A DNA stretch of 64,000 nucleotides from Rickettsiales bacterium (ex Bugula neritina AB1) (GCA_001730065.1 MDLE01000006.1:4041-68040), one strand, 5' to 3'; shown: positions 15,116 through 59,160, numbered from the stretch's first letter. A program made the numbers and translations. The notes: generated by a model from the sequence alone, not told the origin.

Positions 15116-16204
15116 ATGAAATACACAAAAAAGTTATTTTTTTTTTTAATTTTTAATATCATTATATTTTGTCAACCTAGTATGATAGATGAGTATACAC
15201 AAGAAAATATAGATAATATAGATATAGTTGCAAATAAATTGAAGGAATTAGGTAAAAAACCTAGAAATGAGTATGATAGTAATATTAATGATGTATGTAA
15301 ATATTTAAATCAATCCTCCACAGAAGAACTAAATCAAATTAATGAAAAAAATCCACATTTTTTAAATTTATTTACAAATGATTCTAGCTATGAAATTCTT
15401 AAAAGTATAATACTTGTTTACTTGAAGGAAATTATTAATAATAAAAAAAAAATTAGTAAAATATTAAGTAAGAATGAAATTAATATTAATACAGATGATA
15501 TGGATAATATAGATACAAAATGTGAATATAGAGGTATAAAAGGTACTTTTCGTATACTAGCACGTATTAATGAAGATATTGATGAAGATGTTGATGAAGA
15601 TGTTGTTGATGTAAAGTATATAAATGATTGGTTAAAAAAATTTTGTAATTATATAGGTATTAATGAAGATGATGTAAAAAGATATGAAGATAGTGAAAGT
15701 TTTTATATAAAAGAAAATTATCCTGTAATCAAGTCTTTAAAATACATTGTAAAAGCATATAAGCGTGGAATGTTGCATTTTTATTTTTATCTATATTTTG
15801 ATTACATTGTTGTCATTGTTGCAGTTATTTTGTCATTAATATTTTTATTATATCATTTTGTTTATAATATAGATCAAGTAACAAATGTAGAAATTATTGA
15901 AGTACGTAATCAATGTGAAGCAACCATTTATAATGGTAAAAATACCTTAAAGGAATTCGAAGGTAAAATTTCTGACGAACTAAAAGCAGAAATTAATTCT
16001 ACAATAGAAGAAACGGAAAAGGTATTAGCATCTGATTCTAAAGATGTAGAAAAAATTAGAGGAGCTACAGAAAATTTACAAATGGTTTTGAGTAAAATTT
16101 ATGAAGAAATGAGTAAAAAACAAAATCAAGAAGCACCTCAAGATCAAGCATCTGAAAATAATCCTTCACAGGAAGAGAAACAAAAAGAAGAAGAAAATAA
16201 ATAA
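15116..16204 (+). CDS. chimeric protein: signal peptide/acidic/TM surface-protein part fused to a DnaK C-terminal lid domain
   Basis: The N-part has a signal-like segment (MKYTKKLFFFLIFNIIIFC), DEDVDEDVDEDV, and a TM segment (VVIVAVILSLIFLLYHFVYN). The C-part from about 15885 reads EVRNQCEATIYNGKNTLKEFEGKISDELKAEINSTIEETEKVL..ENLQMVLSKIYEEM, which is the Hsp70 helical lid. Confidence 0.7.
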   Translation: MKYTKKLFFFLIFNIIIFCQPSMIDEYTQENIDNIDIVANKLKELGKKPRNEYDSNINDVCKYLNQSSTEELNQINEKNPHFLNLFTNDSSYEILKSIILVYLKEIINNKKKISKILSKNEININTDDMDNIDTKCEYRGIKGTFRILARINEDIDEDVDEDVVDVKYINDWLKKFCNYIGINEDDVKRYEDSESFYIKENYPVIKSLKYIVKAYKRGMLHFYFYLYFDYIVVIVAVILSLIFLLYHFVYNIDQVTNVEIIEVRNQCEATIYNGKNTLKEFEGKISDELKAEINSTIEETEKVLASDSKDVEKIRGATENLQMVLSKIYEEMSKKQNQEAPQDQASENNPSQEEKQKEEENK

Positions 16205-20295: not shown

Positions 20296-21744
20296 TTACT
20301 CTTCATCACCTTCAATTGTATCCAAAGGCATTTGTGAAATAGCAAAAAATCCACCTACAAAAGCAGCAAGGAATAACAAAAAACCAAATATTTTTGTAAG
20401 AATTGTAAATTGTTTTTTAATAACAACACTACCGTCGTTATTTACAGAATATACAAATTTTCTAATTCCGAACTTACTTTGTGAATCTACACCTCTCATT
20501 TCTTGTATTTTTTTTTCTATATTTTTATTACTACCAAATAATTGTTGTAAAACATTATATTCTTTTACAGCTTGCGCGATCATTATTTTCATAAATGAAT
20601 TGATATTTGTCATTGATGACTTGATATCACTATTGATACTATGTATAGAAGAAGATACATTTAATGTCTTTTTCATATTAAAAATAACAGAAAAAATACC
20701 ATTCTCATCCATTTCAATAATTTGAAAAATTTCGGGAAAATATTTTAGTACTAATTCCTTAAAATTACGCATATTCATTACTTCACTATTCAATTTACTA
20801 TCAGTATTAATAGCTTCTGACATAGATGCAATAATTTTATCTTTTGTTTTTTTATCAAAATATTTAGATATTTGTACACCACCAAAAAATATTCCACCTA
20901 ATAAAATAACAGAAAAAATAAATGTAAACATCAAAGTCCAATCACCTTTTAAATTTAAATAATGGTTAAAGTAATCTTTAAAAATCATACTATCATTTAA
21001 ATCTTGTTTTAATGACGTAACAGGTTCATTAGCAGAAAATTGATAAAAAAAAGAAGAAGAAAAAAAACTAAACACATGATCTATAACACCTATTGTTTTA
21101 TGAACTTTGAATGCACTTGTCACTTTATCGTCGCTTCCTTTTTCATAATTAATTTCTACAAAATTAGATTCTTCTTTTTCCACCAAATGACAAAAAAGAC
21201 CACCAAAATTATCACGAGAATTAATATTTTGAATTATAATTGTACTAAAATTTTGTTCTTTATTTTTTTCTCCATTTTTACACGTAGAAGATATTGTTAC
21301 ATATAAATCATCATCTTTAATTTCAGCTTTCAATGTAACTTTTTCTTGGTTTTGGTTGAAAAAATTTGCTTTTAAAAATTCTTTTAATGTATTTAAACTA
21401 TTATCTATAGTTAAATTGAAAACCTTTTTATAACCTTCTTTAAAATCTGCCATTTTTTTGTCATCTTTTAATTCATTAAATAAAGAACTTTCAATGAGTT
21501 CTTGAATATTTTTTTCAAAATCATCTTTTAAATAATCTTTTAAAACACCATTATTATTTTCACAAAACAAAGTACCCTCATCATTTTTATAAAGATAAAA
21601 GTTTGTATTGCACATTTCTTTTGATTGTTGATATGTTACTTTTTGGTTTGTTGCTTCTGTTTGAACCTGAACAAATAAACCACTAAACAAACATAGAATT
21701 TTTATATTTTCTAAAAAAATAAATTTTTTTTTTTTAATTTCCAT
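20296..21744 (-). CDS. signal-peptide protein with two TM segments (hypothetical)
   Basis: 482-aa ORF with an N-terminal hydrophobic segment and TM segments near aa 270-290 and 455-475. No recognisable family. Confidence 0.6.
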   Translation of the reverse strand: MEIKKKKFIFLENIKILCLFSGLFVQVQTEATNQKVTYQQSKEMCNTNFYLYKNDEGTLFCENNNGVLKDYLKDDFEKNIQELIESSLFNELKDDKKMADFKEGYKKVFNLTIDNSLNTLKEFLKANFFNQNQEKVTLKAEIKDDDLYVTISSTCKNGEKNKEQNFSTIIIQNINSRDNFGGLFCHLVEKEESNFVEINYEKGSDDKVTSAFKVHKTIGVIDHVFSFFSSSFFYQFSANEPVTSLKQDLNDSMIFKDYFNHYLNLKGDWTLMFTFIFSVILLGGIFFGGVQISKYFDKKTKDKIIASMSEAINTDSKLNSEVMNMRNFKELVLKYFPEIFQIIEMDENGIFSVIFNMKKTLNVSSSIHSINSDIKSSMTNINSFMKIMIAQAVKEYNVLQQLFGSNKNIEKKIQEMRGVDSQSKFGIRKFVYSVNNDGSVVIKKQFTILTKIFGFLLFLAAFVGGFFAISQMPLDTIEGDEE

Positions 21745-23522: not shown

Positions 23523-24512
23523 ATGTTTGTAGATAGAATAAAAATATTCGCAAAAGCGGGTAATGGTGGAGATGGCAGCATCTCCTTTAGAAGAGAAAAA
23601 CATGTACCTTATGGTGGACCAGATGGTGGAAATGGTGGTAGAGGTGGAAGTATTTTTTTAAAAGGTAATCCTCATATAAATAGTTTAGAATATTTTTATT
23701 ATCATCCTCACTTAAAAGGAAATAACGGTGAAAAAGGTGGTAGAAAAAACTTGTATGGAAAAAGTGGTGAAGATAAAATTTTTAATGTTCCTATTGGTAC
23801 AAGTGTTTATGATGAAAATATGAATATATTACTAGAAATTAATGATAGTAATACTTATCTTTTATTAAAAGGAGGAAAAGGTGGTATTGGTAATTATGAT
23901 TTAAAAACTCATAGAAACCCAACACCAAAACATAATATTCCTCCAGAAATCACCCAAGAAAAAACATTATTTTTATTTTTAACATTAAAATTTGATGTAG
24001 GATTAATAGGATTACCAAATAGTGGAAAATCATCTTTGATTAATATATTATCAAATGCAAATTCTGTAGTAGGAGATTATAGTTTTACAACTTTAAATCC
24101 TGTACTTGGTATGTTATATAATAGTTCTATTTCTATAATTGATCTTCCAGGAATAATAGAAAATGCTCATCAAGGTAAAGGTAATGGTTTAAAATTTTTA
24201 CGGCACAGTGAAAGTTGTAAAATTTTTTTACATATAATAGATATATCAGATGATCCTTTAGAAAGTTATTATAAGGTACGTCAAGAATTGAAGTTTTATA
24301 AATCAGAAGTTTTTTACAAAAAACATATAATTATTTTAAATAAAATTGATAAATTAACGAATAAAGAGTTAGAAAAAATAAAAAATAATATTTTAGAGTT
24401 TAAAGATGCTATATTTATTTCTTGTTTAACAAAAAAAAATACTTTTCTTGTTAAAGATTTATTAATAGAATTTTTTAAAAATATAGAAAAAGATATAAAA
24501 ACAGATATTTGA
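23523..24512 (+). CDS. obg: GTPase Obg/CgtA
   Basis: MFVDRIKIFAKAGNGGDG..FRREK, a glycine-rich Obg fold, GLPNSGKSSL and DLPGII. Confidence 0.9.
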   Translation: MFVDRIKIFAKAGNGGDGSISFRREKHVPYGGPDGGNGGRGGSIFLKGNPHINSLEYFYYHPHLKGNNGEKGGRKNLYGKSGEDKIFNVPIGTSVYDENMNILLEINDSNTYLLLKGGKGGIGNYDLKTHRNPTPKHNIPPEITQEKTLFLFLTLKFDVGLIGLPNSGKSSLINILSNANSVVGDYSFTTLNPVLGMLYNSSISIIDLPGIIENAHQGKGNGLKFLRHSESCKIFLHIIDISDDPLESYYKVRQELKFYKSEVFYKKHIIILNKIDKLTNKELEKIKNNILEFKDAIFISCLTKKNTFLVKDLLIEFFKNIEKDIKTDI

Positions 24513-25555
24513 AAAAGATAAGATATAAAAAAAGATATTTAATTAATTTTAAGAAAAATTTTACTATACAAATATTTTATGATATTATTGTAAATAGCAT
24601 GTATTATAAATTAAATTTATTATTAATTTCTTTTATTGGTATTAAAGGTGTAGAGAATCAAACTGAAATACTACTTGATGAAAACAAAATTCAAAATGTC
24701 TTAGATTCTTTAAAGAATAGATACAATAGAGAAAAAATGGAAGAACCTTATATATTTTTGCATAAAAATTATAGTATTTCTTTAAAAGAATTAGCGGTAT
24801 TTTTTGTTTTTATAAGCGAAATTATGGAAGATTTTTTAAAAAACAATCCATCAAAAATTTATAAAGATATTTATGAATTATATTTAAATTTAAAGGTAAA
24901 TAATAATGATATAGAAAATGTTATAACTCTTATTGATCTATTAAAACATTATTTAATTTATGAAAAATATAACAATGAAAAAAACTTAGATGATGCTTAT
25001 AAAGAATATGTACAAGAATTCTTTTTTTGGCAACTAAAAATTATGGAAGTTACGATACCAATGGAAAACACAGAAATATCTGGATACTTAGATAGTGTAA
25101 AAGGTGAGTTTGAAAATATAAATTATGATGTATATAAAATTATATTAAATATGGAAAAGGTAATAAACTGGTCGAAAGAAAATAATAAGTTTTCTTCTTT
25201 TTTTTTAAATTCTGAAGAAATATCTTCTATGCCTATCAATATAATTTGTCCATTAGTAAGTAATGAGTATATAAAAATGGAAGAAATGATTCAAAATTAT
25301 AGATATTGGTTATGGGGAAGAAAAATAGATGTAGAAAAAAAAATCTATATATATTATATAATTTCTGATGTTGTAAAAAAAAAACCTTTAAATAAAGAAG
25401 ATTTTATAGAAATGAAATCTTTTGAGCTTCTTAAAAAGAAAATTGAAGAATTATCTAAAACAAGAGAAATTACATATGATAATAAAAAATATTTATTAGG
25501 TACTTTTATAGATAAATTATTAAGAGTATTTTTCAAATCAATAAAAAGAAACTAA
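24509..25555 (+). CDS. hypothetical protein
   Basis: Long ORF with no recognisable motif. The track start is non-ATG, and a later Met (MYYKLNLL, about 24599) is possible. Confidence 0.45.
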   Translation: MKKIRYKKRYLINFKKNFTIQIFYDIIVNSMYYKLNLLLISFIGIKGVENQTEILLDENKIQNVLDSLKNRYNREKMEEPYIFLHKNYSISLKELAVFFVFISEIMEDFLKNNPSKIYKDIYELYLNLKVNNNDIENVITLIDLLKHYLIYEKYNNEKNLDDAYKEYVQEFFFWQLKIMEVTIPMENTEISGYLDSVKGEFENINYDVYKIILNMEKVINWSKENNKFSSFFLNSEEISSMPINIICPLVSNEYIKMEEMIQNYRYWLWGRKIDVEKKIYIYYIISDVVKKKPLNKEDFIEMKSFELLKKKIEELSKTREITYDNKKYLLGTFIDKLLRVFFKSIKRN

Positions 25556-31307: not shown

Positions 31308-33590
31308 TTATGAATATTTATTTAATAAAAAATTTGTAGAAATAACCTGCAATGGTGAAACGGATAGATAATTTATATCTAAATTTGCAAATTTCTTTAT
31401 TGATTTTTCATATCCCGCATGTTCACCGCAAATACCTATAGTAATATTAGGTTTAATATTTCTAATTTTAATAATTGTAGATTTAATTAAATTAAAGACA
31501 ACATCATCAATTACCTTAAAAGGATCTTCAGAAAAAATACCATATTCTAAATATTTATTTAAAAAACTATTATAATCATCTCTAGATATTCCTAATAACA
31601 TTTGTGTTAAATCATTTGTACCAAAAGATATAAAATCCACATATTCAATAAATTCTTCTATAATACTTGTTATTCTTGGTATCTCTATCATAACACCTAA
31701 TTTATAAGTAAAGTTTTTACATTGATATTTATTTTTATAGATATTTTCTATAAGTTTTTTAATATGTATAATTTCTTTAGAATGATTCACAAAAGGGATT
31801 TCTATCTCTATATTATTTTTGTTTGTGGTAATAATTGCATCAAAAATAGCCTCTATTTGCAATTTATAGATATAATCATAGGTAATTCCTAAACGTACAC
31901 CACGATTCCCCAACATAGGATTAATTTCTTTTAATTCTTTTGTATCTATAAATTCATGTAATGGTGGATCTAATAAACGTAGTTTAAAGGGTTTGTTTTC
32001 ATTAATCTTCAACATATCTACAATTGTTTCTATGTATAGTTGTTTTATTATTTTTATTTTTGACATGTCTTTATAACAAATTAAATCACGAAAATAACTT
32101 AACATTTCTTTACTACGAAATAACATATGTTCCGTACGACACAAACCTACACCATTAAAAATAAAATTTTTAGCATTAATAATATCATCTACATGATCAG
32201 CATTTATACGAACAGAAATTCTAGAAGATGATTCTTTTAAGAATTCATAATTATTTTTTATAATTTCTATATTTTGTGGACCTTCTAGTAAATATCCATT
32301 ATGACCATCAATTGTAATTAAATCTCCTTCTTTTAAAATTTTATCATTAACTTGAATATGATTTTTAAAAATTTTTAAATTCTCTAAACTTAGTAGAGAA
32401 ACTTTTCCTAATCCTCTTGCAATAATTCCTAAATGACAAGTAGCACCTCCATATTTTGTAATAATACCATTTGTTTTCATAAGAGCTGATATGTGATTAG
32501 GATGTGTTTCTTCTAGGAATAAAATTGTATTTTGATTATTTTTTATGTAAAAATCTAATTTGTTAACATCTAAAACCACCACTCCTGTAATAGCACCTTT
32601 TATTACAGAGATTCCAAAAGATAATTTTTTTGTTTCCTCTTTATAAACAACCTGTTGTGTATCAATATTATCTAAAATATTATCAGGTATAATTTGAAAA
32701 AATTCTTTTTTATTAATAATGTTATGTTTTAAAAATCTCTCACCCATAGTGACAATTTCATGATTATTTAATTTACAATTACGAGTTTGTAGTATATATA
32801 AATCATTATCTTCTACCGTAAATTCTATATCTTGAATAAATTTAAAATGTTTTTCTAATAAATTTGATGTTTTGTTTAATTCTTTTAAAATATTTTTAGA
32901 AAGATTTTTAATATTTTCACCTGTTCTTGAACCATTAACAATTTCGTTTCCTTGAGTTTGTTTTAGAAACTCCCCAAAAATAATATCTTTATCTGGATAA
33001 CTAGAAAATACAATACCCGTAGAACTATTTTCATTTAAATTTCCAAATACCATTTGTTGAATAATTATTCCCATTGATAAATCTTTTATATTGTTAAGAT
33101 TAATATAATCGTTAACACGATCTTTTTTTAAGGAGCAAATAATTTCTTTAATAGCAAGAATGATTTGATCATAAATATTTTCTATGTCTTTAAAGGGATT
33201 ATTTTTAAATATATTTTCTAAAAATTCTTTTGAATATTTTTTTGAATTATTTTTTATATTATTATTTATTCCTATATTCAAAACACTTTCTAACATACCT
33301 GGCATAGATATATTACAACTTGATCTAACAGATATAAAAAGAGGATTTTTAGTACTATTAAATTTTTTATCTGTTATTTTTTCTAATTCATATAGATATT
33401 TATAAAGATTTTCTTGAAAGTTATTAGGAAATGAATTGTTTTTTAAAAAATAATTTACAACATTACTAGTTATAATAAACCCCTTAGGTATTTTAATACC
33501 AAGTTTCATCATTTCTTTAAGATTATTTCCTTTATTACCGGCATTATCTATATTAATAGAGAAGTTTTCTAACATATATATATGAGACAT
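31308..33590 (-). CDS. ppdK: pyruvate, phosphate dikinase (shortened)
   Basis: GNKGNNLKEM..IPKGFIIT, the phospho-His region GGATCHLGIIARGLG, and the PEP-utilising C-terminus GLCRTEHM and FISFGTNDLTQ. Confidence 0.9.
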   Translation of the reverse strand: MSHIYMLENFSINIDNAGNKGNNLKEMMKLGIKIPKGFIITSNVVNYFLKNNSFPNNFQENLYKYLYELEKITDKKFNSTKNPLFISVRSSCNISMPGMLESVLNIGINNNIKNNSKKYSKEFLENIFKNNPFKDIENIYDQIILAIKEIICSLKKDRVNDYINLNNIKDLSMGIIIQQMVFGNLNENSSTGIVFSSYPDKDIIFGEFLKQTQGNEIVNGSRTGENIKNLSKNILKELNKTSNLLEKHFKFIQDIEFTVEDNDLYILQTRNCKLNNHEIVTMGERFLKHNIINKKEFFQIIPDNILDNIDTQQVVYKEETKKLSFGISVIKGAITGVVVLDVNKLDFYIKNNQNTILFLEETHPNHISALMKTNGIITKYGGATCHLGIIARGLGKVSLLSLENLKIFKNHIQVNDKILKEGDLITIDGHNGYLLEGPQNIEIIKNNYEFLKESSSRISVRINADHVDDIINAKNFIFNGVGLCRTEHMLFRSKEMLSYFRDLICYKDMSKIKIIKQLYIETIVDMLKINENKPFKLRLLDPPLHEFIDTKELKEINPMLGNRGVRLGITYDYIYKLQIEAIFDAIITTNKNNIEIEIPFVNHSKEIIHIKKLIENIYKNKYQCKNFTYKLGVMIEIPRITSIIEEFIEYVDFISFGTNDLTQMLLGISRDDYNSFLNKYLEYGIFSEDPFKVIDDVVFNLIKSTIIKIRNIKPNITIGICGEHAGYEKSIKKFANLDINYLSVSPLQVISTNFLLNKYS

Positions 33591-41227: not shown

Positions 41228-41248
41228 TTAATATAGATTGTAAATAGA

Positions 41249-41277
41249 TTGTAAATTTAATGAATATCTTATATAAT
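41249..41277 (+). promoter_or_regulatory. sigma-70-like promoter (TTGTAA, 17 nt spacer, TATAAT) upstream of atpE
   Basis: TTGTAA at 41249-41254 and TATAAT at 41272-41277. It is preceded by a tandem atagattgtaa x2 and followed by an AGGAGG RBS. An almost identical cassette lies at 41604-41632. Confidence 0.55.
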
Positions 41278-41306
41278 ATATAAAAAATTATCATAGGAGG
41301 TAATAT

Positions 41307-41519
41307 ATGTTATATAAAGTTTTATGTTTGGCATTTATAGGTATTTGTGTTGTTTCAATTTCTTTAGCATGGGTAATAAGTAGTTTTTTTAATTCTGCAA
41401 GTAGAAACCCTGTAATAATTGAAGGTACCAAAACACTTTTATATGTAGCTATTGCAACACTAGAAGTATTAGCTTTAGTAATGTTTATATATCTAATATT
41501 AACATTAGGTAAAATATAA
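41307..41519 (+). CDS. atpE: F0F1 ATP synthase subunit c-like protein (orphan, divergent)
   Basis: Two-helix hairpin. NSASRNPVIIEGTKTLLYVAIATLEVLALVMFIYLIL aligns to the c-subunit loop ARNP/ARQP and the carboxylate helix (LxEAL). The helix-1 glycine motif is missing. Confidence 0.7.
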   Translation: MLYKVLCLAFIGICVVSISLAWVISSFFNSASRNPVIIEGTKTLLYVAIATLEVLALVMFIYLILTLGKI

Positions 41520-41603
41520 TTAATATATATATTTTTATGAATATAATATTATTTTTAATAAAAAAAAGTATTTAAAAAGATTTGAAAAATATTAGAAATA
41601 GAT

Positions 41604-41632
41604 TTGTAAAATTCACAAATATCTTATATAAT
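41604..41632 (+). promoter_or_regulatory. sigma-70-like promoter (TTGTAA, 17 nt spacer, TATAAT), duplicate of the atpE cassette
   Basis: TTGTAA at 41604-41609 and TATAAT at 41627-41632. It shares the aaatagatt(t)gtaaa...aatatcttatataat context, and AGGAGG lies at 41651-41656. Confidence 0.55.
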
Positions 41633-41662
41633 TATAACTGTTATTTATATAGGAGGATTATA

Positions 41663-41764
41663 ATGAATAGCCTTTTGCCTATATTTAGGAGTTTATATAA
41701 AAATAGGAGAATAGTTCAGTTGTTTGTATTATTATCAAATCTTATTTTTATAAATGTAATATAA
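41663..41764 (+). CDS. 33-aa small hydrophobic-tailed peptide (leader ORF of AAA operon)
   Basis: The ATG lies 7 nt after a perfect AGGAGG. The peptide is MNSLLPIFRSLYKNRRIVQLFVLLSNLIFINVI, and its stop lies 2 nt before the next ATG. The track ORF 41582 start is probably too far upstream. Confidence 0.5.
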   Translation: MNSLLPIFRSLYKNRRIVQLFVLLSNLIFINVI

Positions 41765-41766
41765 TT

Positions 41767-44070
41767 ATGAAATACAAAGTTTTTTTTATTTATTTTTTAT
41801 TAAATTACTCTATTGTTTGTAGTAATAGTGATTTAAAAATCCTTGAAAAAATTGATGATTTATCATTACAAGAAGAAATAAAAACATCATTAGAGTCAGA
41901 AACAATATTTCCTTATTTATCATTTTTGCACGAATTTTTAGGTGATAATATAAAAGGACAACAATTTCTTAACAATGATTTTTATAATTTAACAAATTCA
42001 CCTATACACTTAAATATTATTAATAATAAAAAATATTTTTTTAAAATATTAGACAAAATAAAAAATATAATTAATGTTATTATTTTTTACTCTACTTTAG
42101 GTTTCTTGAGTTTTATAAAAGAAAAATGTTATTTTGTTCTTTATAACTTTTTTCCAAATATGTTTATTAATACAAATATCCTAAAAGAATATGCATTAAG
42201 TCAAAGACATAAAGTTTTAGATTTTATTAATGGATACTCTAAAAACTACCAACGTAATATTCAAGATTTATATGAAAATGTACAAATTGATTATTTTAGA
42301 GAGGTTATACTTGATCTTGTAATACTTGGTGGAAATAGTGTTGTTTATAAAGAATTTGCTATTAATTTTAAAATTATTCAAGATTTTCTAGAAGAAAGTT
42401 TACAAAAATTACCAAAAGAATACAAAAAATTAATGTGGTTAGATCTTTTTATAAAAAAAACTAATTTGAATTTTTATATTCTTGGTGATCGTCTTTCAAT
42501 AACTCCTACATTAATTTCTACTTGTATACCACAAGTAAGAAATATTATTACAGGGCCATATTTTTTACATATGATGACAAAAAACATCAATGAAAAAAGT
42601 ATTATATTTATGAAAGATAATATTGATTTTGTTATCAATTATGAATTTAATAATAAAGAAAAAGAAGCTTTGTTTTTTAAAAATATACAAAAATCCTACT
42701 TAAGTGGTATTGATAATATATTGTCATTACTAGGACCATTTTATGAATATCCTAAAATAGTAATATTATTTCTAATAAAAATAATTTTTACAATATTTAT
42801 AAAAATATTTTTTACATTTATAAATATATATTCATTTTTTAAAAAAACTATTTTTGGTAAAGAATCAGAAATAATTGTTCAGGAATCTGATAAAAATAAA
42901 CATTTTAATATTACAGATGAAAAAATACACACCATAAGAAACTATCGAAATAGACTTATTAATTTATCTATTAATAATGATTTAATACAATCAAAAGGTT
43001 TGTTTTTTTCCAATTATCCTATTCATTATCTTGCAGATAAGTTTGAATATAAAATACAATCTTTTTTTTACAAATTATCTAGTGATTTATTATTTAGAAT
43101 AGTTGATTATGTAGGACGTAATGAAGAATATTATTTTCCTGAGGAAATTATTTTAAATAAAACAAATAATAAACTCAATACTATTTGTTTTAAATCTCTA
43201 AAAAATAGTATTAATAAAAAAGTGACACTTCCTCATATTATTATAGAAGGAGGTATGAATATATCTATGAGTTTTATAAGAAATTTAGAATATATTATCA
43301 ATGACAGTACCAAACAAACTGTATATCGCACTAATATTCAAGATCCATTAAGAGTTACAAATATTTTATTAAATCAAAAAAATATTGGAAAAACATCTAT
43401 GAATGTGGGAACAGTAGCAAAAAAATCCTTTTCAAATATATTTCAACATAATTTAAATAATTTAAAAAGTGTATTGAGTATACATTTTTTAAATGAAAAT
43501 GATAATCGATTAAGTTTTATTAATAAATTTTATTTATCTGTTGTTCATCGTTTATATAGTTTTTTTTCTGGTGGTAGTATATTTTCTCCTTGGAAAAAAC
43601 GTATTAGCATGGTAGTTATTGAAAATATTAATAGATTTCTTGGTCAAAGAAAAAAGAATGATATGGATAATATTAAAACTTCTGGTGTTCATTATTTACT
43701 AGGTATTATAACTCAGCAAGTAAAACATTTTTTACTTTTACAATGTTATGATTTAGAAAATGTAGATAGTGCTATCAAAAGTCGTATGGATTTTTCTATA
43801 GTTTTAACAATACGAGAACATGATGAGTATCAAACATTATTACGTAGAAATCTTTTAGAAATAATACGTGAAAATCCTAATTTATTAAATTTTTCAGATG
43901 AGAAATTTGAGATTTATGTATTTGAATTAACACAAGTATTTAGAAAAAAATATGTTTCTATTCGAATGTTAAAAGAATTGATGAATTACTATATTAATAT
44001 ACAGGGAAAAGAAAAAGGTACAAATTTAAAAATTATTTTAGAACTTATTAATAATGATAGGAGAGTATAA
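41767..44070 (+). CDS. membrane protein with C-terminal degenerate (Walker A/B-less) AAA+ domain
   Basis: Signal-like N-terminus and internal TM segments. The C-terminal 250 aa are paralogous to the downstream AAA protein. LPHIIIEGGMNISMSFIRNL aligns to KPVILIYGEPGVGKTLLIRNL, ISMVVIENI to YILVIDDVE, and DSAIKSRMDF to DPSISRRINY. Confidence 0.7.
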   Translation: MKYKVFFIYFLLNYSIVCSNSDLKILEKIDDLSLQEEIKTSLESETIFPYLSFLHEFLGDNIKGQQFLNNDFYNLTNSPIHLNIINNKKYFFKILDKIKNIINVIIFYSTLGFLSFIKEKCYFVLYNFFPNMFINTNILKEYALSQRHKVLDFINGYSKNYQRNIQDLYENVQIDYFREVILDLVILGGNSVVYKEFAINFKIIQDFLEESLQKLPKEYKKLMWLDLFIKKTNLNFYILGDRLSITPTLISTCIPQVRNIITGPYFLHMMTKNINEKSIIFMKDNIDFVINYEFNNKEKEALFFKNIQKSYLSGIDNILSLLGPFYEYPKIVILFLIKIIFTIFIKIFFTFINIYSFFKKTIFGKESEIIVQESDKNKHFNITDEKIHTIRNYRNRLINLSINNDLIQSKGLFFSNYPIHYLADKFEYKIQSFFYKLSSDLLFRIVDYVGRNEEYYFPEEIILNKTNNKLNTICFKSLKNSINKKVTLPHIIIEGGMNISMSFIRNLEYIINDSTKQTVYRTNIQDPLRVTNILLNQKNIGKTSMNVGTVAKKSFSNIFQHNLNNLKSVLSIHFLNENDNRLSFINKFYLSVVHRLYSFFSGGSIFSPWKKRISMVVIENINRFLGQRKKNDMDNIKTSGVHYLLGIITQQVKHFLLLQCYDLENVDSAIKSRMDFSIVLTIREHDEYQTLLRRNLLEIIRENPNLLNFSDEKFEIYVFELTQVFRKKYVSIRMLKELMNYYINIQGKEKGTNLKIILELINNDRRV

Positions 44071-44072
44071 AA

Positions 44073-45284
44073 ATGATAAGATATTTTGTATTATTAATGA
44101 CTTATATTTCTACAATAAATAGATATACAAGTCCTTATACAACAAAAATTGCTTCAGCATTAAGTGATGCTTATATAGATATGAAAAGAATGGATTTATA
44201 TATGCAAAAAAAAGGTAATGATGATTTTATAGAATTTTTTAAAAATGCCTTTAATTTTACAGGTAATATTTCTGATATTTCTACTTATACTATTGAAACG
44301 GTTCAGCATATGCGTAGCCATGAAGGGTATTGGAGTCAATTTTGGGAATCTATTACTATACGTGTAATAACAAAATTTTTATTTAAAATATTTGAAAGAA
44401 TATTAGAATATTTTGCCATCAGTTTTGATAAAATTCCTATCTATGAAGTATTAAAAAAATCAAAAAAAAAAATTTTTAAAATCTTTTTAAACGAAAAAGA
44501 AATGTTAATGTGGAAAAAGATTAAAAATCTTATGTCGTTAAAATTTCCAAAAGGAGAAAAACCTGTTATTTTGATATATGGTGAACCTGGTGTAGGAAAA
44601 ACTCTGTTAATTAGAAATTTACTTCAATCATTACCTAAAAAAAACAAAATAATTTATTTACATGCAAGTAATATATTTACAACTGATGAAAATAAAAATG
44701 TATCAATTGCAGAGCTAAATAAGGTTATAGATATGTTAATTAAAAATCCTGATTATATACTTGTAATTGATGATGTAGAAATTATTCTTTCCGCAAGATA
44801 TTATTTTCATCAACACTATAAAAACGACCAAGAAAAAGAATTTTCTGATGATTTTAGAGATATGTTACGTACTATTTCTACGTTAATACTATTTGTTTTT
44901 TCTCGTAGAGAAACAAGAACAATATTAATATCTAATTTACCTAATGTGAATAATATAGATCCTTCTATTAGTCGTCGTATAAATTACATGTGTTATATAT
45001 CTTTACCAAATTTAAATACCCGTAGCAAAATGTGGAGGCATAAAATAATAAAATATAAAATTCACATTAATGATTTAAATATTGACGAAGCAATTCAAGT
45101 ACTTGGAAATGCTTCCTATAATTTTTCTCTTAGAGATATTAATGCAATATGTCGTAATTTCAAAGAATCGCATATTTCTATAAAAGATTTATTAAATTTT
45201 ATTGAAGAATACACAAAAAGACTTAAAGAGTTTCAAATTTTATCAAACAATATGAAAACAATCTTTGAAAATTACAGTTTATAG
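44073..45284 (+). CDS. N-terminally anchored classic-clade AAA+ ATPase
   Basis: Walker A GEPGVGKT, Walker B LVIDDVE and an SRH-like NIDPSISRRINY. AGGAG lies inside the end of the upstream gene, and the ATG is 2 nt after the upstream stop. Confidence 0.8.
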   Translation: MIRYFVLLMTYISTINRYTSPYTTKIASALSDAYIDMKRMDLYMQKKGNDDFIEFFKNAFNFTGNISDISTYTIETVQHMRSHEGYWSQFWESITIRVITKFLFKIFERILEYFAISFDKIPIYEVLKKSKKKIFKIFLNEKEMLMWKKIKNLMSLKFPKGEKPVILIYGEPGVGKTLLIRNLLQSLPKKNKIIYLHASNIFTTDENKNVSIAELNKVIDMLIKNPDYILVIDDVEIILSARYYFHQHYKNDQEKEFSDDFRDMLRTISTLILFVFSRRETRTILISNLPNVNNIDPSISRRINYMCYISLPNLNTRSKMWRHKIIKYKIHINDLNIDEAIQVLGNASYNFSLRDINAICRNFKESHISIKDLLNFIEEYTKRLKEFQILSNNMKTIFENYSL

Positions 45285-45292
45285 TATTTAAG

Positions 45293-46759
45293 ATGTTATA
45301 TAGAAATAGAAATATTAAAGAAAATATAGTATTCTCTTCTATAATATTGTTTTATTTTTTTATATTTATGAGTATTATATTTAATAAAATAATATTTAAA
45401 CCTTTTATTAAGAAAAATTTTCAAGAACTATATACAATTTATGATAGAAATAATAATATATTATGTGAAACAAAAATTGTATATGATTATTATCTTAATG
45501 TAGGAAAAAATATTCCTTCTATTAAATCTTCTACTAAATTTTTTATAAAAAAACATTTTCCAAAATTTTCTATTTCTTCCATTAAATCAAATAAAGTATA
45601 TTTATTAGGTAGTAGTTTATATAAATTATCTTCTAAAATTCCAAAAAATATTTCCATAAAAAAAAGATTTTCTCGATATCACCCCTATGGTAAAGTAACT
45701 AGTACATTATTAGGAATTCGTAGAAATAATATTATTTTTGGATTGGAAAAATTTACGGATAAAGAAAAAATTATTAGTAGTATAGATATAAGAATACAAA
45801 ATATTTTGTACAAAGCTTTAATGAAAGGTTATAAACAATTTCCTTGTGAAGCAGTACATGCTATTATAGAAAATGAAAAAGGTGAGGTTCTTGCAATAGT
45901 ATCTCTACCTAATTTTGATCCAAACGATTTAAATAAAACACCTAAAAATACCTCTAATAAAATCTTTCAAGGTGTTTATGAAATGGGATCTATTATTAAA
46001 GTATTTGCAATTATGGGGGGAGTACATTATAATTTAATTAAAATTAATGATATATTTGATATTTCAAAAACCGTCAAAATTGGAAATTTTATAATTACAG
46101 ATGCAAATAGAATGAATAATACTGCTACCGTTAAAGAAATATTAATGAAATCTTCTAATAAAGGTATGGTTTTAATAGCAGAAGTTATTTATAATATTTT
46201 ACCGGATTTTTATAAATCTCTTCTTCTTCATAAACGTATTAATAATAAATATATAAAAACACCTCCTATATTCTTTAGTAATAATCCTTCATTAGCACTT
46301 ATAAAAAGTTATTGTTTTGGTTATGGTTTTGCTACAACTCCTTTAAATATTCTTAGGGCAATGCGTTGTATTTGCACAAACAATTTAATTGATAGTTCTA
46401 TCATCAAAATTGATAAACCTGTTATTCAAGATAAAATAAAAATTCACGATAAAGAAAAAGTATTAAAAATAATGGAAAATATTGCTAATCAATATATAAA
46501 AACTCCTTATAATATTAAAGTAATGTTTAAAACGGGCACCGCTCGACAAAATATAAATGGAAAGTATATAAAAAATGTTGTAAATACATTTTTTATTGTT
46601 ATTTTAGAAGTAAATAATAAAAAATTTTTTTTGTTTTTTATGATGGAAAAACCTACAAATATGCCTAATACTGGATTTTTTAATATAAAAAAAGTAGGAG
46701 AAGATTTTATAAATTTATTAATAAAATCAAAAATCTTAGAAGAAAAAAATAATAAATAA
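45293..46759 (+). CDS. ftsI: penicillin-binding protein, FtsI/PBP3-like transpeptidase
   Basis: N-terminal TM segment, SxxK (GSIIK), SxN (SSN), KTG (FKTGTAR), and LAIVSLPNFDPN. Confidence 0.8.
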   Translation: MLYRNRNIKENIVFSSIILFYFFIFMSIIFNKIIFKPFIKKNFQELYTIYDRNNNILCETKIVYDYYLNVGKNIPSIKSSTKFFIKKHFPKFSISSIKSNKVYLLGSSLYKLSSKIPKNISIKKRFSRYHPYGKVTSTLLGIRRNNIIFGLEKFTDKEKIISSIDIRIQNILYKALMKGYKQFPCEAVHAIIENEKGEVLAIVSLPNFDPNDLNKTPKNTSNKIFQGVYEMGSIIKVFAIMGGVHYNLIKINDIFDISKTVKIGNFIITDANRMNNTATVKEILMKSSNKGMVLIAEVIYNILPDFYKSLLLHKRINNKYIKTPPIFFSNNPSLALIKSYCFGYGFATTPLNILRAMRCICTNNLIDSSIIKIDKPVIQDKIKIHDKEKVLKIMENIANQYIKTPYNIKVMFKTGTARQNINGKYIKNVVNTFFIVILEVNNKKFFLFFMMEKPTNMPNTGFFNIKKVGEDFINLLIKSKILEEKNNK

Positions 46760-47154: not shown

Positions 47155-47454
47155 ATGATTATATTGAAAAGAATATTTTTATTTTTAAAAAACAATATTT
47201 TTATTTTTTTCACAATTATTTTGATTTACTCAGTTTTTTTAAGAAAAAATGGTATTTTTCATAATTTATATGAAATTTATTTTAAAAAAAATTATTATGA
47301 AAGTTATATATTATCTTTAAAAGAGAAAATTGATAAATATAACAACTATCTTCAACTAATAGATGAAAATAATAAAGATTACATAGAAGAGTTGTATTTT
47401 TATCGTTATAATTTTTTACCATATTCTCATAAAATTATAGAGGTAGAAGAGTAA
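47155..47454 (+). CDS. ftsB: septum formation initiator FtsB/DivIC-like
   Basis: N-terminal TM segment, a coiled coil, and a C-terminal DYIEELYFYRYNF..KIIEV pattern. Confidence 0.6.
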   Translation: MIILKRIFLFLKNNIFIFFTIILIYSVFLRKNGIFHNLYEIYFKKNYYESYILSLKEKIDKYNNYLQLIDENNKDYIEELYFYRYNFLPYSHKIIEVEE

Positions 47455-50541: not shown

Positions 50542-51627
50542 ATGCTTATATTAAGATTTAAAAATAGTTATTTTTTTTTATTATTAATAATAATAGATGG
50601 AAAAATAAACATCAAACCTCCTACTAATCATTTAATTAATAAGAATATGATAAAATATGAATTTTTAGATATCATTCATATTTTATGTACATACTTACCA
50701 AATTTTGAGTACAAATTCACATATCAATTTAAAGATAATAAAAATTCTTTTTTATCACAAATAAAAGTTTTTTTTAATACTTTTTATAAAATTCCTAAAA
50801 TACATAACTATAGTCAATATATAGATAAAAAATATAGCTTAAATATTGTAAATAATTATAATAAATACATATTATGTAAAAAACTTATAGATATACACAA
50901 TATCTCTATAGATTATAGGAGAAAATATATAAATATTTTAAAAAAAAATATTAAATTTATAGGTGTTAATGAAATATTAAAAAATAAACTTAAAATAGAA
51001 AATGAAATTTTATCATTAATGAATTTAGAAGAAAAAATATCATTAATTAATGCTGATAATAAGTATGGTATTAATGGTAATATAGAAAATTTTTCTACAA
51101 ATTATTTGGTGCCTTTTGGGGAATTTAAATTTAAAAAATATTTTATACCCTATAGTTTTAGTATAAACAAACAATATTTAGAATTTTCCCAATGGATAGA
51201 TAATGTTAATTTTTTCTGGCAATATACTAATATAATAAATAATTATGATCAATATAGTTTTTATATTAATAATAAATTTGAAATGTTTCGGGATTATAAT
51301 AAATTACAAAAAAAAATAAAAAAAAAAAAAAATAAAATATTTTATAATATAACAAAAACTAATAATCTCTTATTAAGAAAAAAATTATTAATAAATAAAT
51401 TTTATCTATTTAAAGAATACAAAAATAAACTTCAAAACAAAAATTGTTTTATTGTACATCATGAATATAATATTGTTTTTAAAATTATAAAAATTATCGA
51501 AAACATTCATAACATTGATTACAAAATTAGTAGAAATCTATGGGAAATATATTTAGAGTTGATACCTTTAGAAAAAAACAAAAATCAATATCTATATGGT
51601 ACAAATTTTTCACTAACAAAAAAATAA
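50542..51627 (+). CDS. hypothetical protein
   Basis: 361-aa Lys/Asn-rich ORF containing a 15-A homopolymer (51318-51332) that remains in frame. No recognisable motif. Confidence 0.45.
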   Translation: MLILRFKNSYFFLLLIIIDGKINIKPPTNHLINKNMIKYEFLDIIHILCTYLPNFEYKFTYQFKDNKNSFLSQIKVFFNTFYKIPKIHNYSQYIDKKYSLNIVNNYNKYILCKKLIDIHNISIDYRRKYINILKKNIKFIGVNEILKNKLKIENEILSLMNLEEKISLINADNKYGINGNIENFSTNYLVPFGEFKFKKYFIPYSFSINKQYLEFSQWIDNVNFFWQYTNIINNYDQYSFYINNKFEMFRDYNKLQKKIKKKKNKIFYNITKTNNLLLRKKLLINKFYLFKEYKNKLQNKNCFIVHHEYNIVFKIIKIIENIHNIDYKISRNLWEIYLELIPLEKNKNQYLYGTNFSLTKK

Positions 51628-57966: not shown

Positions 57967-59160
57967 GTGTTTTTATATATATTATTTTCCTTAGGTTTCT
58001 TTAATTATAGTTCTAATATAAAAAAAAAACCTATAAAAAAAGTTAGTAGATTAACAAGAGGGTTAATAAATATAAAAAATTTTTTTTTAAAAATATCAAT
58101 TTTTTATTTAATTTATTCTTTATCGATATTTATTGTTATTTTTTTTATTTTAAGGTATAAAATCTTTTCTAAAAAAATTATTTATGATAATAATAAAAAT
58201 ATTAATAATATTAATTTATTAGAATTTTTACATGAAATTAGTAATAAAAATTATATAAATACAATAGAACTAACTATTGAAAAAGTATTAAATACTTATT
58301 TACTACATAATAAATTAAAATATACAAATAATATAAACATATATTTGAAAAGTATTGAGAATATCAAAGATATTTTAAAATATTTAAATATTATTTTTTT
58401 AGAATATAAAAATATTAATGAAAAAATAATTAACAAATTTATTCCTGAAGAAAATAAATTTATTTTTTTAAATTTATATAGGGAAATTACAAAAATATAT
58501 TCTTTTTTACATCCTAAACTAGAAATCGCATTAGATAATTTAATAGAAAGACAAAAAAAAGAGTTTAAAAAAAACAAAAAATTATTGTTTTGTCATGTAA
58601 TAACTGATAATAATAAAAAAGACAATAATAATATATATCGAAATATTATATATAATAATATTTATAAAAACTTAGTAAATTTATTAGATATAGAATTTGT
58701 AGAAGAAATAACAAAAAATATTGTAATTTATTATAAAAGTTTTTATGTTAATAAATTATTTGGTTATACTTTTTTTAAATATTTTTTCAGTTCTAATGAC
58801 TATATTATTCAAAATATTTTTTTAACATTTTATACATATTTTGAAAATCAAATAGATTTAAATATTATGTTTTCTTTTTTTATTGAGGGAGCGATAAGAA
58901 ACTTTTTTTCCGTCTTTTATAAAAAAAATGATATCTACTATACTTTTAGTAAAGAACTTTCTTCATCTATTAGTGTATACAATAAATGCAAAAATTATAT
59001 ATATTATATATTAAATTTTTTATTAATAAAATCTATAATTTTTTTGTTAAATTTTATTTTTATTACTTTAAAATTTTATTTTTATTCTTTAATAATCAAA
59101 AAATCCTACAAAATATTTTTATTTTTAAGTTTTATTATTATTTTATTTTTTTTCAATTAA
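57967..59160 (+). CDS. hypothetical membrane protein
   Basis: 397-aa ORF with N- and C-terminal TM segments. GTG start. Confidence 0.45.
   Translation: MFLYILFSLGFFNYSSNIKKKPIKKVSRLTRGLINIKNFFLKISIFYLIYSLSIFIVIFFILRYKIFSKKIIYDNNKNINNINLLEFLHEISNKNYINTIELTIEKVLNTYLLHNKLKYTNNINIYLKSIENIKDILKYLNIIFLEYKNINEKIINKFIPEENKFIFLNLYREITKIYSFLHPKLEIALDNLIERQKKEFKKNKKLLFCHVITDNNKKDNNNIYRNIIYNNIYKNLVNLLDIEFVEEITKNIVIYYKSFYVNKLFGYTFFKYFFSSNDYIIQNIFLTFYTYFENQIDLNIMFSFFIEGAIRNFFSVFYKKNDIYYTFSKELSSSISVYNKCKNYIYYILNFLLIKSIIFLLNFIFITLKFYFYSLIIKKSYKIFLFLSFIIILFFFN

What the first reader, a model, noticed from the sequence alone, without database searches (positions are those of the whole stretch)
41663..45284. 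Candidate novel membrane machine: 33-aa peptide + 767-aa pseudo-AAA membrane protein + 403-aa anchored AAA+ ATPase, translationally coupled
Three ORFs are packed with 2-nt gaps behind one strong promoter and RBS. The 403-aa protein is a single-domain classic-clade AAA+ with an intact Walker A (GEPGVGKT), Walker B (LVIDDVE) and SRH-like arginines (PSISRRINY), preceded by hydrophobic N-terminal segments. The 767-aa protein has a signal-like start and several TM segments, and its C-terminus is clearly paralogous to that AAA domain, but every catalytic motif is destroyed. GGMNISMS replaces Walker A, VIENI replaces Walker B, and AIKSRMDF replaces SISRRINY. An active subunit paired with a dead paralog is the hallmark of heteromeric AAA+ machines. 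Outside FtsH, classic-clade membrane-anchored AAA proteins are rare in bacteria. In size and topology the 403-aa protein resembles eukaryotic N-anchored AAA proteins of the Msp1/ATAD1 or Bcs1 type, so host-derived HGT is conceivable. The unit sits next to the orphan c-subunit gene and is followed by ftsI-hup-ftsB. Possible functions include protein extraction or insertion at the symbiont envelope, or secretion support. I recognise no match to ClpV or any T6SS/T4SS ATPase.
Basis: partly seen in the sequence, partly recalled or inferred. Interest (0 to 1): 0.75.

Follow-up and report, generated by a model that had tools for sequence, protein, structure and literature searches.

The report
Conserved active/dead AAA+ ATPase gene pair
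A very AT-rich, fast-evolving alphaproteobacterium that imports ATP (probably a symbiont) carries a conserved two-gene unit, a working AAA+ motor ATPase next to a large partner whose own AAA domain can no longer bind ATP but keeps its arginine finger; the pair is found in only a handful of related uncultured bacteria and has no characterised counterpart.

Summary
The core observation holds. ORFs of 767 aa (41767-44070) and 403 aa (44073-45284) are real, 2 nt apart, and evolve like their housekeeping neighbours (dN/dS about 0.28-0.29). They sit next to each other in five divergent loci. Only five relatives of the 767-aa protein exist among 1.84 billion representative proteins.

The 403-aa protein is a classic-clade AAA ATPase. 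It has Walker A, sensor-1 Asn and a double Arg finger. Its Walker B reads DD here and DE in distant orthologues.

The C-terminus of the 767-aa protein is a degenerate AAA domain. Profile-profile comparison gives E 5.7e-6 against a best shuffled control of 0.064. Marginal PDB and Foldseek hits are almost all AAA, and one orthologue gives a near-threshold Pfam AAA hit. It has no conserved P-loop or catalytic Glu, but its D-x-A-x-x-S-R motif is invariant.

Three claims are not confirmed:
- The 33-aa ORF is absent in the sister genome and lies in a local promoter duplication.
- The 767-aa protein does not have "several TM segments", and the 403-aa protein has no true TM anchor. Both have only short signal-like N-termini.
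- Nothing supports transfer from a eukaryotic host.

Best reading: a heteromeric AAA+ machine, co-transcribed with ftsI, in which the dead subunit acts as scaffold and Arg-finger donor. The substrate is unknown.

The parts
41767..44070 (+). Gene for the 767-aa large subunit. It has a short N-terminal hydrophobic stretch, an all-helical region of about 450 aa with no detectable relatives, and a C-terminal degenerate AAA domain plus lid.
   Evidence: ORF. No Pfam or NCBIfam hit. Orthologues P0005, P0007, P0008, P0009. dN/dS 0.29.
43129..44067 (+). Pseudo-AAA domain of the large subunit (about aa 455-767). It has no conserved P-loop. The Walker-B strand is MVVIEN (612-620), with no catalytic Glu. 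R628 is invariant.
   Evidence: hhalign. PDB profile hits are all ATAD1/Msp1, Vps4, spastin or fidgetin. Foldseek hits are almost all AAA. Pfam AAA on orthologue P0007 gives 20.8 bits (cut-off 21.2). AF2 strand/helix order follows the AAA pattern.
43765..43785 (+). Retained SRH / Arg-finger motif D667-S-A669-I-K-S672-R673 of the dead domain. D667, A669, S672 and R673 are invariant in all five family members.
   Evidence: Alignment A3.
42757..42813 (+). The only strongly hydrophobic internal segment of the large subunit (aa 331-349). It is weaker in the sister and absent in P0007 and P0009.
   Evidence: Hydropathy. Alignment.
44073..45284 (+). Gene for the 403-aa active AAA ATPase. It has a short N-terminal hydrophobic stretch, a helical region of about 150 aa, and a classic-clade AAA domain plus lid.
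   Evidence: Pfam PF00004 E 1e-10. PDB hits to Rpt, p97, NSF, Vps4 and Msp1. Orthologues. dN/dS 0.28.
44580..44603 (+). Walker A motif GEPGVGKT (aa 170-177).
   Evidence: G170, P172, G173, G175, K176 and T177 are invariant in alignment A6.
44757..44780 (+). Walker B strand YILVIDDVE (D233 and E236 invariant). Position 234 is D in the window and its sister and E in distant orthologues.
44958..44987 (+). SRH motif DPSISRRINY with the double Arg finger R301-R302. Sensor-1 N288 lies upstream.
44060..44065 (+). Shine-Dalgarno-like GGAGAG for the 403-aa gene. It lies inside the 3' end of the 767-aa gene.
   Evidence: Sequence.
41663..41764 (+). 33-aa ORF with a strong SD (AGGAGG at 41651-41656), ending 2 nt before the 767-aa start. 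It is not conserved and is probably a leader ORF that delivers ribosomes.
   Evidence: Absent in the sister.
41604..41632 (+). Promoter-like site TTGTAA-17-TATAAT. It is a local near-duplicate of the promoter of the 70-aa gene at 41249-41277.
41307..41519 (+). 70-aa protein like ATP-synthase subunit c. In the sister genome it lies directly upstream (12 nt) of the large-subunit gene. It is not linked to the pair in the distant loci.
   Evidence: NCBIfam subunit C gives 30.5 bits, below the cut-off of 85. Synteny.
45293..46759 (+). ftsI (PBP3-type transpeptidase), 8 nt downstream with no SD of its own. It is probably co-transcribed and translationally coupled.
   Evidence: Pfam Transpeptidase E 3e-26. 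Junction sequence. Same order in the sister.

Best explanation
The two genes encode the subunits of one heteromeric AAA+ machine.

The 403-aa protein is the motor. It binds and hydrolyses ATP through Walker A, Walker B, sensor-1 and two trans-acting arginines. It carries a hydrophobic or aromatic pore-loop position.

The 767-aa protein cannot bind nucleotide. It keeps an AAA fold and one invariant SRH arginine. It therefore most likely docks against the motor subunit through the normal AAA-AAA interface. There it would complete or stimulate the neighbouring active site. Its N-terminal region of about 450 aa would serve as scaffold or substrate adaptor. LAP1/LULL1 do this for Torsin, and delta-prime does it in clamp loaders.

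The unit is transcribed and translationally coupled with ftsI. Both proteins start with short signal- or anchor-like hydrophobic segments. The likeliest job is therefore ATP-driven unfolding, extraction or assembly of envelope or divisome proteins.

Shown: the gene pair, its conservation, the motif status and the AAA homology of both proteins.
Inferred: physical association, Arg-finger donation, envelope location and substrate.
For: - Adjacent genes (overlap of 1 nt to gaps of up to 6 nt) in five loci. Proteins are only 20-29% identical between the distant ones.
- The large-subunit family has only 5 members among 1.84e9 representatives. The AAA family has only 3 clusters among 5.8e9 sequences.
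- dN/dS is 0.29 and 0.28, the same as FtsI at 0.28.
- The catalytic motifs of the 403-aa family are invariant.
- The dead domain is homologous to AAA: hhalign E 5.7e-6 against shuffled controls of 0.064 or worse. All 20 PDB profile hits are meiotic-clade AAA. The Foldseek top 50 are almost all AAA. Pfam AAA on P0007 gives 20.8 bits.
- Within the dead domain, the invariant residues include D667, A669, S672, R673 and R628. No P-loop is conserved.
- An SD for the 403-aa gene lies inside the 767-aa gene.
- ftsI follows directly in the window and its sister, and lies about 3 kb away in the JGI contig. rlpA-like and murJ genes lie within 3 kb in L003.
- LAP1 is a precedent: an atypical AAA+ fold without nucleotide motifs but with a strictly conserved arginine (PMC4358337 abstract).
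Against: - There is no direct evidence of a complex.
- Both AF2 monomer models are poor (pLDDT 43 and 46).
- The 403-aa protein has its own two arginines, so it does not need a donated finger.
- Window and sister carry DD instead of DE at Walker B, which may slow hydrolysis.
- The N-terminal hydrophobic stretches (KD10 about 1.9) are weaker than those of bona fide exported or membrane proteins of the window (2.7-3.4). A few cytoplasmic proteins reach similar values.
- If these stretches are true Sec signals, the AAA domains would be outside the cytoplasm.
- The link to ftsI is only by gene neighbourhood, in a gene-dense genome.
Confidence: 0.5

Rival explanations
1. The 403-aa protein forms an ordinary homohexameric AAA unfoldase. 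The 767-aa protein does not enter the ring. It is a dedicated adaptor, regulator or substrate whose AAA-like domain is only a structural relic.
For: - The 403-aa family keeps every motif needed for a self-sufficient ring, including two Arg fingers.
- Conserved adjacency fits an adaptor equally well.
Against: - The best-conserved residues of the dead domain include the SRH/Arg-finger motif. That is hard to explain for a relic that never contacts an ATP site.
Confidence: 0.2
2. Both proteins are exported and act outside the bacterial cytoplasm. One option is the periplasm, which in an ATP-importing intracellular bacterium must contain host ATP. The other is the host cytosol, as a Vps4/katanin/spastin-like remodeller of host membranes or cytoskeleton.
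For: - Most orthologues of both families (at least four of five AAA proteins and three of four full-length large proteins) start with a short hydrophobic run of about 9-14 residues, usually after K/R. That length suits a signal peptide and is too short for a TM helix.
- The window encodes a TLC ATP/ADP translocase and a T6SS sheath.
- SRH and post-Walker-B motifs resemble Vps4, spastin and ATAD1. Vps4 is the top Foldseek hit for the 403-aa model.
Against: - No signal-peptide predictor could be run.
- The hydrophobicity is modest compared with true exported proteins of the window.
- P0003 and P0009 have weak N-termini.
- T6SS substrates normally lack Sec signals.
- Similarity to meiotic-clade AAA is no stronger than to p97 or Rpt.
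Confidence: 0.12
3. The pair substitutes for ClpV (TssH) or ClpB and recycles the contracted T6SS sheath.
For: - A fused TssB-TssC sheath gene lies at 8330-10249.
- No other AAA protein is detectable in the 64-kb window.
- Holosporaceae-type symbionts carry modified T6SSs (bioRxiv 10.1101/719211).
Against: - The pair lies 31 kb from the sheath gene.
- It has no Clp N-domain and no double-ring architecture.
- Only 64 kb of a contig of at least 177 kb was visible, so ClpV or ClpB may exist elsewhere.
- In L003 the neighbouring secretion gene is a T2SSE/VirB11-type ATPase, not a T6SS gene.
Confidence: 0.06
4. The 403-aa protein is a fast-evolving remnant of FtsH that lost its protease domain (FtsHi-like), and the 767-aa protein is a second degenerate copy.
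For: - FtsH is, from general knowledge, the only universal bacterial classic-clade AAA.
- Ycf2-FtsHi and Orf2971-FtsHi complexes appear among the Foldseek hits.
Against: - There is no M41 domain and no two-TM N-terminus.
- FtsH is absent from the PDB sequence hits at E of 1e-3 or better for the family profile.
- FtsH is absent from the top NCBIfam hits, where CdvC, PAN and CDC48 appear.
Confidence: 0.05

Closest known systems
Torsin with LAP1/LULL1 (eukaryotic ER and nuclear envelope)
   Same: An active AAA+ ATPase is partnered with a protein that has an AAA-like fold, no nucleotide-binding motifs and a strictly conserved arginine (PMC4358337). The active subunit carries an N-terminal signal-like sequence.
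   Different: - Torsin itself lacks an Arg finger, while the 403-aa protein has two.
- The clades differ: Torsin is Clp-like and this family is classic-clade.
- No sequence relationship was detected.
- Here the dead partner is a 767-aa protein with a large unknown N-terminal region.
Meiotic-clade AAA ATPases (Vps4/CdvC, spastin, katanin, fidgetin, Msp1/ATAD1)
   Same: - Both proteins have a single AAA domain plus lid.
- The SRH has no 'PG' insertion (IDPSISRRINY, VDSAIKSRMDF).
- The post-Walker-B 'L-x-G-x-R' resembles Vps4 (that resemblance is read from memory of the Vps4 sequence).
- These proteins are the only PDB hits of the large-subunit profile. Vps4 tops the Foldseek list for the 403-aa model.
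   Different: - All scores are marginal (E 0.04-2).
- The 403-aa protein scores better against Rpt and p97 than against Msp1 or Vps4.
- No MIT domain, Vps4_C domain or TM anchor was detected.
Heteromeric classic-clade AAA machines with inactive subunits or domains (Ycf2-FtsHi, Pex1/Pex6)
   Same: Active and degenerate AAA modules are combined in one machine. These complexes appear among the Foldseek hits.
   Different: These are eukaryotic or plastid systems. There is no orthology, and the domain architectures differ (FtsHi has a pseudo-protease, Pex1/6 are two-ring proteins).
IetA/IteA anti-phage AAA ATPase (IetAS system)
   Same: A bacterial single-domain AAA of about 370-395 aa. It is the best PADLOC hit (36.6 bits) and the top NCBIfam hit (30.8 bits).
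   Different: The score is far below the NCBIfam cut-off of 510. No IetS protease partner is present. The context is housekeeping, not a defence island.
FtsH
   Same: A classic-clade AAA that works at the bacterial envelope.
   Different: There is no M41 protease and no two-TM N-terminus. FtsH is not among the better sequence matches.

Membership tests
Classic-clade AAA ATPase (Pfam PF00004): 403-aa protein | Score above the Pfam gathering threshold | tested here: met
   42.6 bits against a cut-off of 21.2, E 1e-10.
Classic-clade AAA ATPase (Pfam PF00004): 403-aa protein | Walker A GxxGxGK[ST], Walker B hhhhDE, sensor-1 Asn, SRH with two Arg | tested here: met
   GEPGVGKT, D233, N288 and R301-R302 are invariant in 5 orthologues. 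Walker B is DD in the window and its sister and DE in the other three.
AAA fold (degenerate): C-terminus of the 767-aa protein | Significant profile similarity to AAA domains | tested here: met
   hhalign against the 403-aa family gives E 5.7e-6 and Prob 85.5%. Shuffled controls give E 0.064 or worse. PF00004 on orthologue P0007 gives 20.8 bits against a cut-off of 21.2. PDB and Foldseek hits are AAA, with two Foldseek exceptions or doubtful rows.
AAA fold (degenerate): C-terminus of the 767-aa protein | Functional nucleotide-binding motifs (P-loop, catalytic Glu) | tested here: not met
   No GxxxxGK[ST] is conserved in any of five members. A GKT tripeptide at 541-543 occurs only in the window and its sister. 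The Walker-B strand reads VVIEN.
Msp1/ATAD1 | N-terminal transmembrane anchor | tested here: not met
   No 19-residue window reaches KD 1.6 in the 403-aa family, apart from one internal AAA-core strand in P0003. The N-terminal hydrophobic run is only about 9-14 residues.
Msp1/ATAD1 | Closer to Msp1/ATAD1 than to other AAA subfamilies | tested here: not met
   Msp1 scores E 1.3e-4 to 3e-4, while Rpt scores 5e-8 and p97 about 2e-7.
FtsH | C-terminal M41 metalloprotease domain and two N-terminal TM helices | tested here: not met
   No Peptidase_M41 hit. Hydropathy shows no such helices.
ClpV/TssH | Clp N-domain plus two AAA+ modules (D1, D2) | tested here: not met
   There is a single AAA domain. 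No Clp family appears among the Pfam or NCBIfam hits shown.
IetA/IteA (IetAS defence) | Score above the curated cut-off, and an adjacent IetS protease | tested here: not met
   30.8 bits against a cut-off of 510. The neighbours are a c-subunit-like gene and ftsI.
Torsin-LAP1-type active/dead AAA pair (working analogy, not a family) | The dead partner keeps a conserved arginine at the SRH position and lacks nucleotide motifs | tested here: met
   R673 is invariant and the P-loop is lost.
Torsin-LAP1-type active/dead AAA pair (working analogy, not a family) | Physical heteromer in which the arginine activates the partner's ATPase | not testable with these tools
   This needs multimer modelling or biochemistry.

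The most novel reading that the evidence does not exclude
Both proteins are Sec-exported. They would then form an ATP-driven AAA+ machine working outside the cytoplasm: in the periplasm, using host ATP that must pass through it on the way to the TLC translocase, or in the host cytosol. That would be a bacterial counterpart of luminal Torsin-LAP1. It would also be an exception to the rule that the bacterial periplasm has no ATP-dependent machines. A link to FtsI-dependent septal wall synthesis is possible.
Probability: 0.1. Interest if true: 0.9.

Novelty: new variant of a known kind. Interest (0 to 1): 0.55.

Why it matters
Heteromeric AAA+ machines that pair an active subunit with a dead, arginine-donating one are known mainly from eukaryotes and organelles, such as Torsin-LAP1, Ycf2-FtsHi and Pex1/6. 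This is a bacterial, lineage-restricted example.

About 3.5 kb is devoted to the pair in a very gene-dense genome. It is conserved across deep divergence and is co-transcribed with ftsI. It therefore probably performs a function these symbionts cannot lose.

Defining its substrate could show how highly reduced intracellular bacteria maintain or divide their envelope. If the proteins are exported, it could show how they use host ATP outside their own cytoplasm.

Tried and rejected
1. Pairwise BLASTP of the two proteins gave E 0.96. This was not informative and profiles were needed.
2. Scans of GTDB genomes and JGI metagenome contigs for relatives of the AAA protein found nothing. DNA of the JGI contig that carries P0003 and P0009 could not be fetched.
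3. AF2 monomer models of both proteins are low confidence (pLDDT 43 and 46). I used them only for secondary-structure order and as a mutual calibration of the Foldseek hits.
4. The global hhalign alignment misplaces the P-loop. I relied on the local alignment with shuffled controls instead.
5. The anti-phage reading (IetA, TRIP13) was rejected. Scores are generic AAA similarity and the context is housekeeping.
6. The consensus promoter scan is uninformative in 20% GC DNA.
7. Looking up the window's own protein to find the source sample failed. A literature search for the run accessions found nothing, and the rumen-ciliate preprint was not relevant.
8. Re-scanning the unknown ORFs of the window for T6SS components found none.
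9. A search for further paralogues or other AAA genes in the window found none.


Full report
WHAT IS THERE

The window has about 20% GC. The protein database records a 177,484-bp contig for the window's proteins. The window carries:
- the alphaproteobacterial marker TrcR;
- a TLC ATP/ADP translocase;
- a fused TssB-TssC T6SS sheath gene;
- housekeeping genes.

LepA is at most 48% identical to any GTDB species representative, and the best hits are mostly Alphaproteobacteria, including Holosporaceae MAGs. The organism is therefore a fast-evolving, probably intracellular alphaproteobacterium that parasitises host ATP.

The three ORFs of the finding are at the stated coordinates with 2-nt gaps. 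ftsI follows 8 nt after the 403-aa gene.

THE 403-aa PROTEIN

It passes Pfam AAA with 42.6 bits against a cut-off of 21.2. In the PDB it matches proteasomal Rpt, p97, NSF, Cdc48, archaeal Vps4/CdvC and Msp1 at E 5e-8 to 1e-4. A family profile gives the same picture, and FtsH is not among the hits at E of 1e-3 or better.

I found orthologues in four other loci:
- P0002, 67% identical;
- a 409-aa protein in L003;
- a 412-aa protein in L005;
- P0003, 28% identical by BLASTP.

Across the five sequences, Walker A (G170, P172, G173, G175, K176, T177), Walker B D233, E236, sensor-1 N288 and R301-R302 are invariant.

THE 767-aa PROTEIN

It has no Pfam or NCBIfam hit. Pairwise BLASTP against its neighbour is insignificant (E 0.96).

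An exhaustive HMMER search of 1.84 billion representative proteins found only five relatives. Four lines of evidence show that the C-terminal 300 residues or so are a degenerate AAA domain plus lid:
1. hhalign of the five-member family against the AAA family gives E 2.7e-4 over the full length. On the C-terminal sub-alignments it gives Prob 85.5%, E 5.7e-6 and score 48.1. Forty column-shuffled controls reach at most score 20.9, with a lowest E of 0.064.
2. The family profile searched against all PDB sequences returns only ATAD1/Msp1, Vps4, spastin, fidgetin-like 1 and NVL. The E-values are marginal (0.04-2), but every alignment falls on the Walker-B to SRH stretch.
3. The AF2 model is poor (pLDDT 43), yet it shows the strand-helix order of an AAA core. 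Its Foldseek hits are almost all AAA ATPases, at E about 1e-4 to 2e-3. That is the same range as the equally poor model of the bona fide AAA neighbour.
4. Orthologue P0007 hits PF00004 positions 31-125 with 20.8 bits, against a gathering score of 21.2.

No P-loop is conserved in the family. A GKT tripeptide at 541-543 exists only in the window and its sister. The Walker-B strand reads VVIEN. The invariant residues include R628 and the SRH motif D667-x-A669-x-x-S672-R673.

THE PAIR IS A UNIT

In all five loci the large gene is immediately followed by the AAA gene:
- window: 2-nt gap;
- L001/L002: 2-nt gap;
- L003/L004: 1-nt gap;
- L005: 6-nt gap;
- JGI contig: 1-nt overlap.

Between the window and its sister, dN/dS is 0.29 for the large gene and 0.28 for the AAA gene. 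FtsI gives 0.28 and PepA 0.24. An SD for the 403-aa gene lies inside the 3' end of the 767-aa gene. No further paralogue or other AAA gene exists in the window.

WHAT DOES NOT HOLD

The 33-aa ORF. In the sister genome the 70-aa c-subunit-like gene ends 12 nt before the large gene, so there is no room for this ORF. In the window, the extra 247 nt contain a near-copy of the promoter and SD of the 70-aa gene. The 767-aa gene has no SD of its own. The short ORF therefore most likely only delivers ribosomes. That last point is inference.

The topology. The 767-aa protein has one strongly hydrophobic internal segment (331-349). It is weaker in the sister and absent in P0007 and P0009. The 403-aa protein has no TM-grade segment.

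Most members of both families begin with a short hydrophobic run of about 9-14 residues, usually after K/R. That looks like a signal peptide rather than an anchor. In the window it is less hydrophobic (KD10 about 1.9) than in clear exported or membrane proteins (2.7-3.4), and a few cytoplasmic proteins reach 1.7-2.0. Localisation is therefore open.

Host-derived HGT. No protein outside the family is closer than generic AAA similarity. Msp1 is not preferred over p97 or Rpt.

CONTEXT

ftsI follows directly in the window and its sister, and lies about 3 kb away in the JGI contig. In L003 an RlpA-like (DPBB_1) gene and murJ lie within 3 kb. Immediately after ftsI the window and the sister differ (hup and an ftsB-like gene, versus a thioredoxin-reductase-like gene). 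The block of 70-aa gene, large gene, AAA gene and ftsI is thus what stays together. This is association by neighbourhood only.

MECHANISM

The conservation pattern of the dead domain is nucleotide motifs lost and SRH arginine kept. That is the pattern of partners that contact a neighbour's ATP site, such as LAP1/LULL1 with Torsin (PMC4358337) and delta-prime in clamp loaders (general knowledge).

I therefore favour a heteromeric AAA+ machine. The 403-aa subunit is the motor. The 767-aa subunit is the scaffold, adaptor and Arg-finger donor. The unit is co-expressed with ftsI and probably acts on envelope or divisome proteins.

Four rivals remain:
- a homohexamer with a non-ring adaptor;
- an exported machine acting in the periplasm or the host;
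- a ClpV substitute for the T6SS;
- a degenerate FtsH.

The evidence for and against each is given in the rival explanations.

NOVELTY

The kind of system is known: an AAA+ machine with an inactive partner. This family is not. It is an orphan, restricted to a few uncultured AT-rich bacterial lineages, and it has an unrecognisable 450-aa N-terminal region.

Noticed in passing
window 8330-10249 (+): A single 639-aa ORF fuses the T6SS sheath subunits TssB/VipA (aa 11-162) and TssC/VipB (aa 215-633). Pfam E-values are 3e-37 and 3e-105. No other T6SS component was recognisable among neighbouring unknown ORFs.
   Followed up: partly
window 41307-41519 (+); L001 4009-4221: A 70-aa two-helix protein is weakly similar to ATP synthase subunit c (30.5 bits, cut-off 85). 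It keeps an RNP loop and a Glu in helix 2. No other ATP synthase gene is recognisable in the 64-kb window. In the sister genome it lies 12 nt upstream of the large-subunit gene.
   Followed up: partly
window 41228-41306 and 41575-41665: The promoter and SD of the 70-aa gene are duplicated locally. The exact 12-mer ATAGATTGTAAA occurs only here in the window, twice in tandem at 41233 and 41244, plus a copy with one inserted base near 41598. The sister genome lacks the second copy and the 247-nt spacer.
   Followed up: yes
window 60108-61616 (+): A TLC-family ATP/ADP translocase (Pfam E 7e-75), a hallmark of bacteria that parasitise host energy. A pyruvate phosphate dikinase lies at 31308-33590 (-).
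   Followed up: no
JGI 3300059473 contig, genes at 6905-8929 (-) and 8977-9660 (-): A 674-aa protein with only a weak AAA hit lies convergent to, and immediately after, the pair in the most distant locus. It could be a third related subunit or a degenerate FtsH. Its sequence could not be retrieved.
   Followed up: no
window 15116-16204 (+): A 362-aa ORF has a strongly hydrophobic N-terminus. Its only hit is to the extreme C-terminus of Hsp70 (PF00012 positions 524-598, E 3e-5).
   Followed up: no
window 1393-2868, 12029-13324, 20296-21744, 24509-25555, 50542-51627, 57967-59160, 61798-62715: Seven ORFs of 305-491 aa have no credible Pfam match; the only hits are chance-level (E 0.009-0.025, below cut-off). 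Several have signal-like N-termini. They may be lineage-specific envelope or secreted proteins, or unrecognisably diverged T6SS parts.
   Followed up: partly
L003 8432-9472 and 3672-7796: The second pair-bearing lineage has a T2SSE/VirB11-type ATPase gene and a 1374-aa protein without credible Pfam hits, a few kb upstream of the pair. Two pair-bearing lineages co-occur in run ERR10466835: L001 (GC 24.4%) and L004, which carries the same gene as L003 (GC 24.1%).
   Followed up: no
window 47155-47454 (+): A 99-aa ORF with one N-terminal TM helix and a coiled-coil tail starts 3 nt after hup. It is FtsB/DivIC-like in architecture but has no Pfam hit.
   Followed up: no
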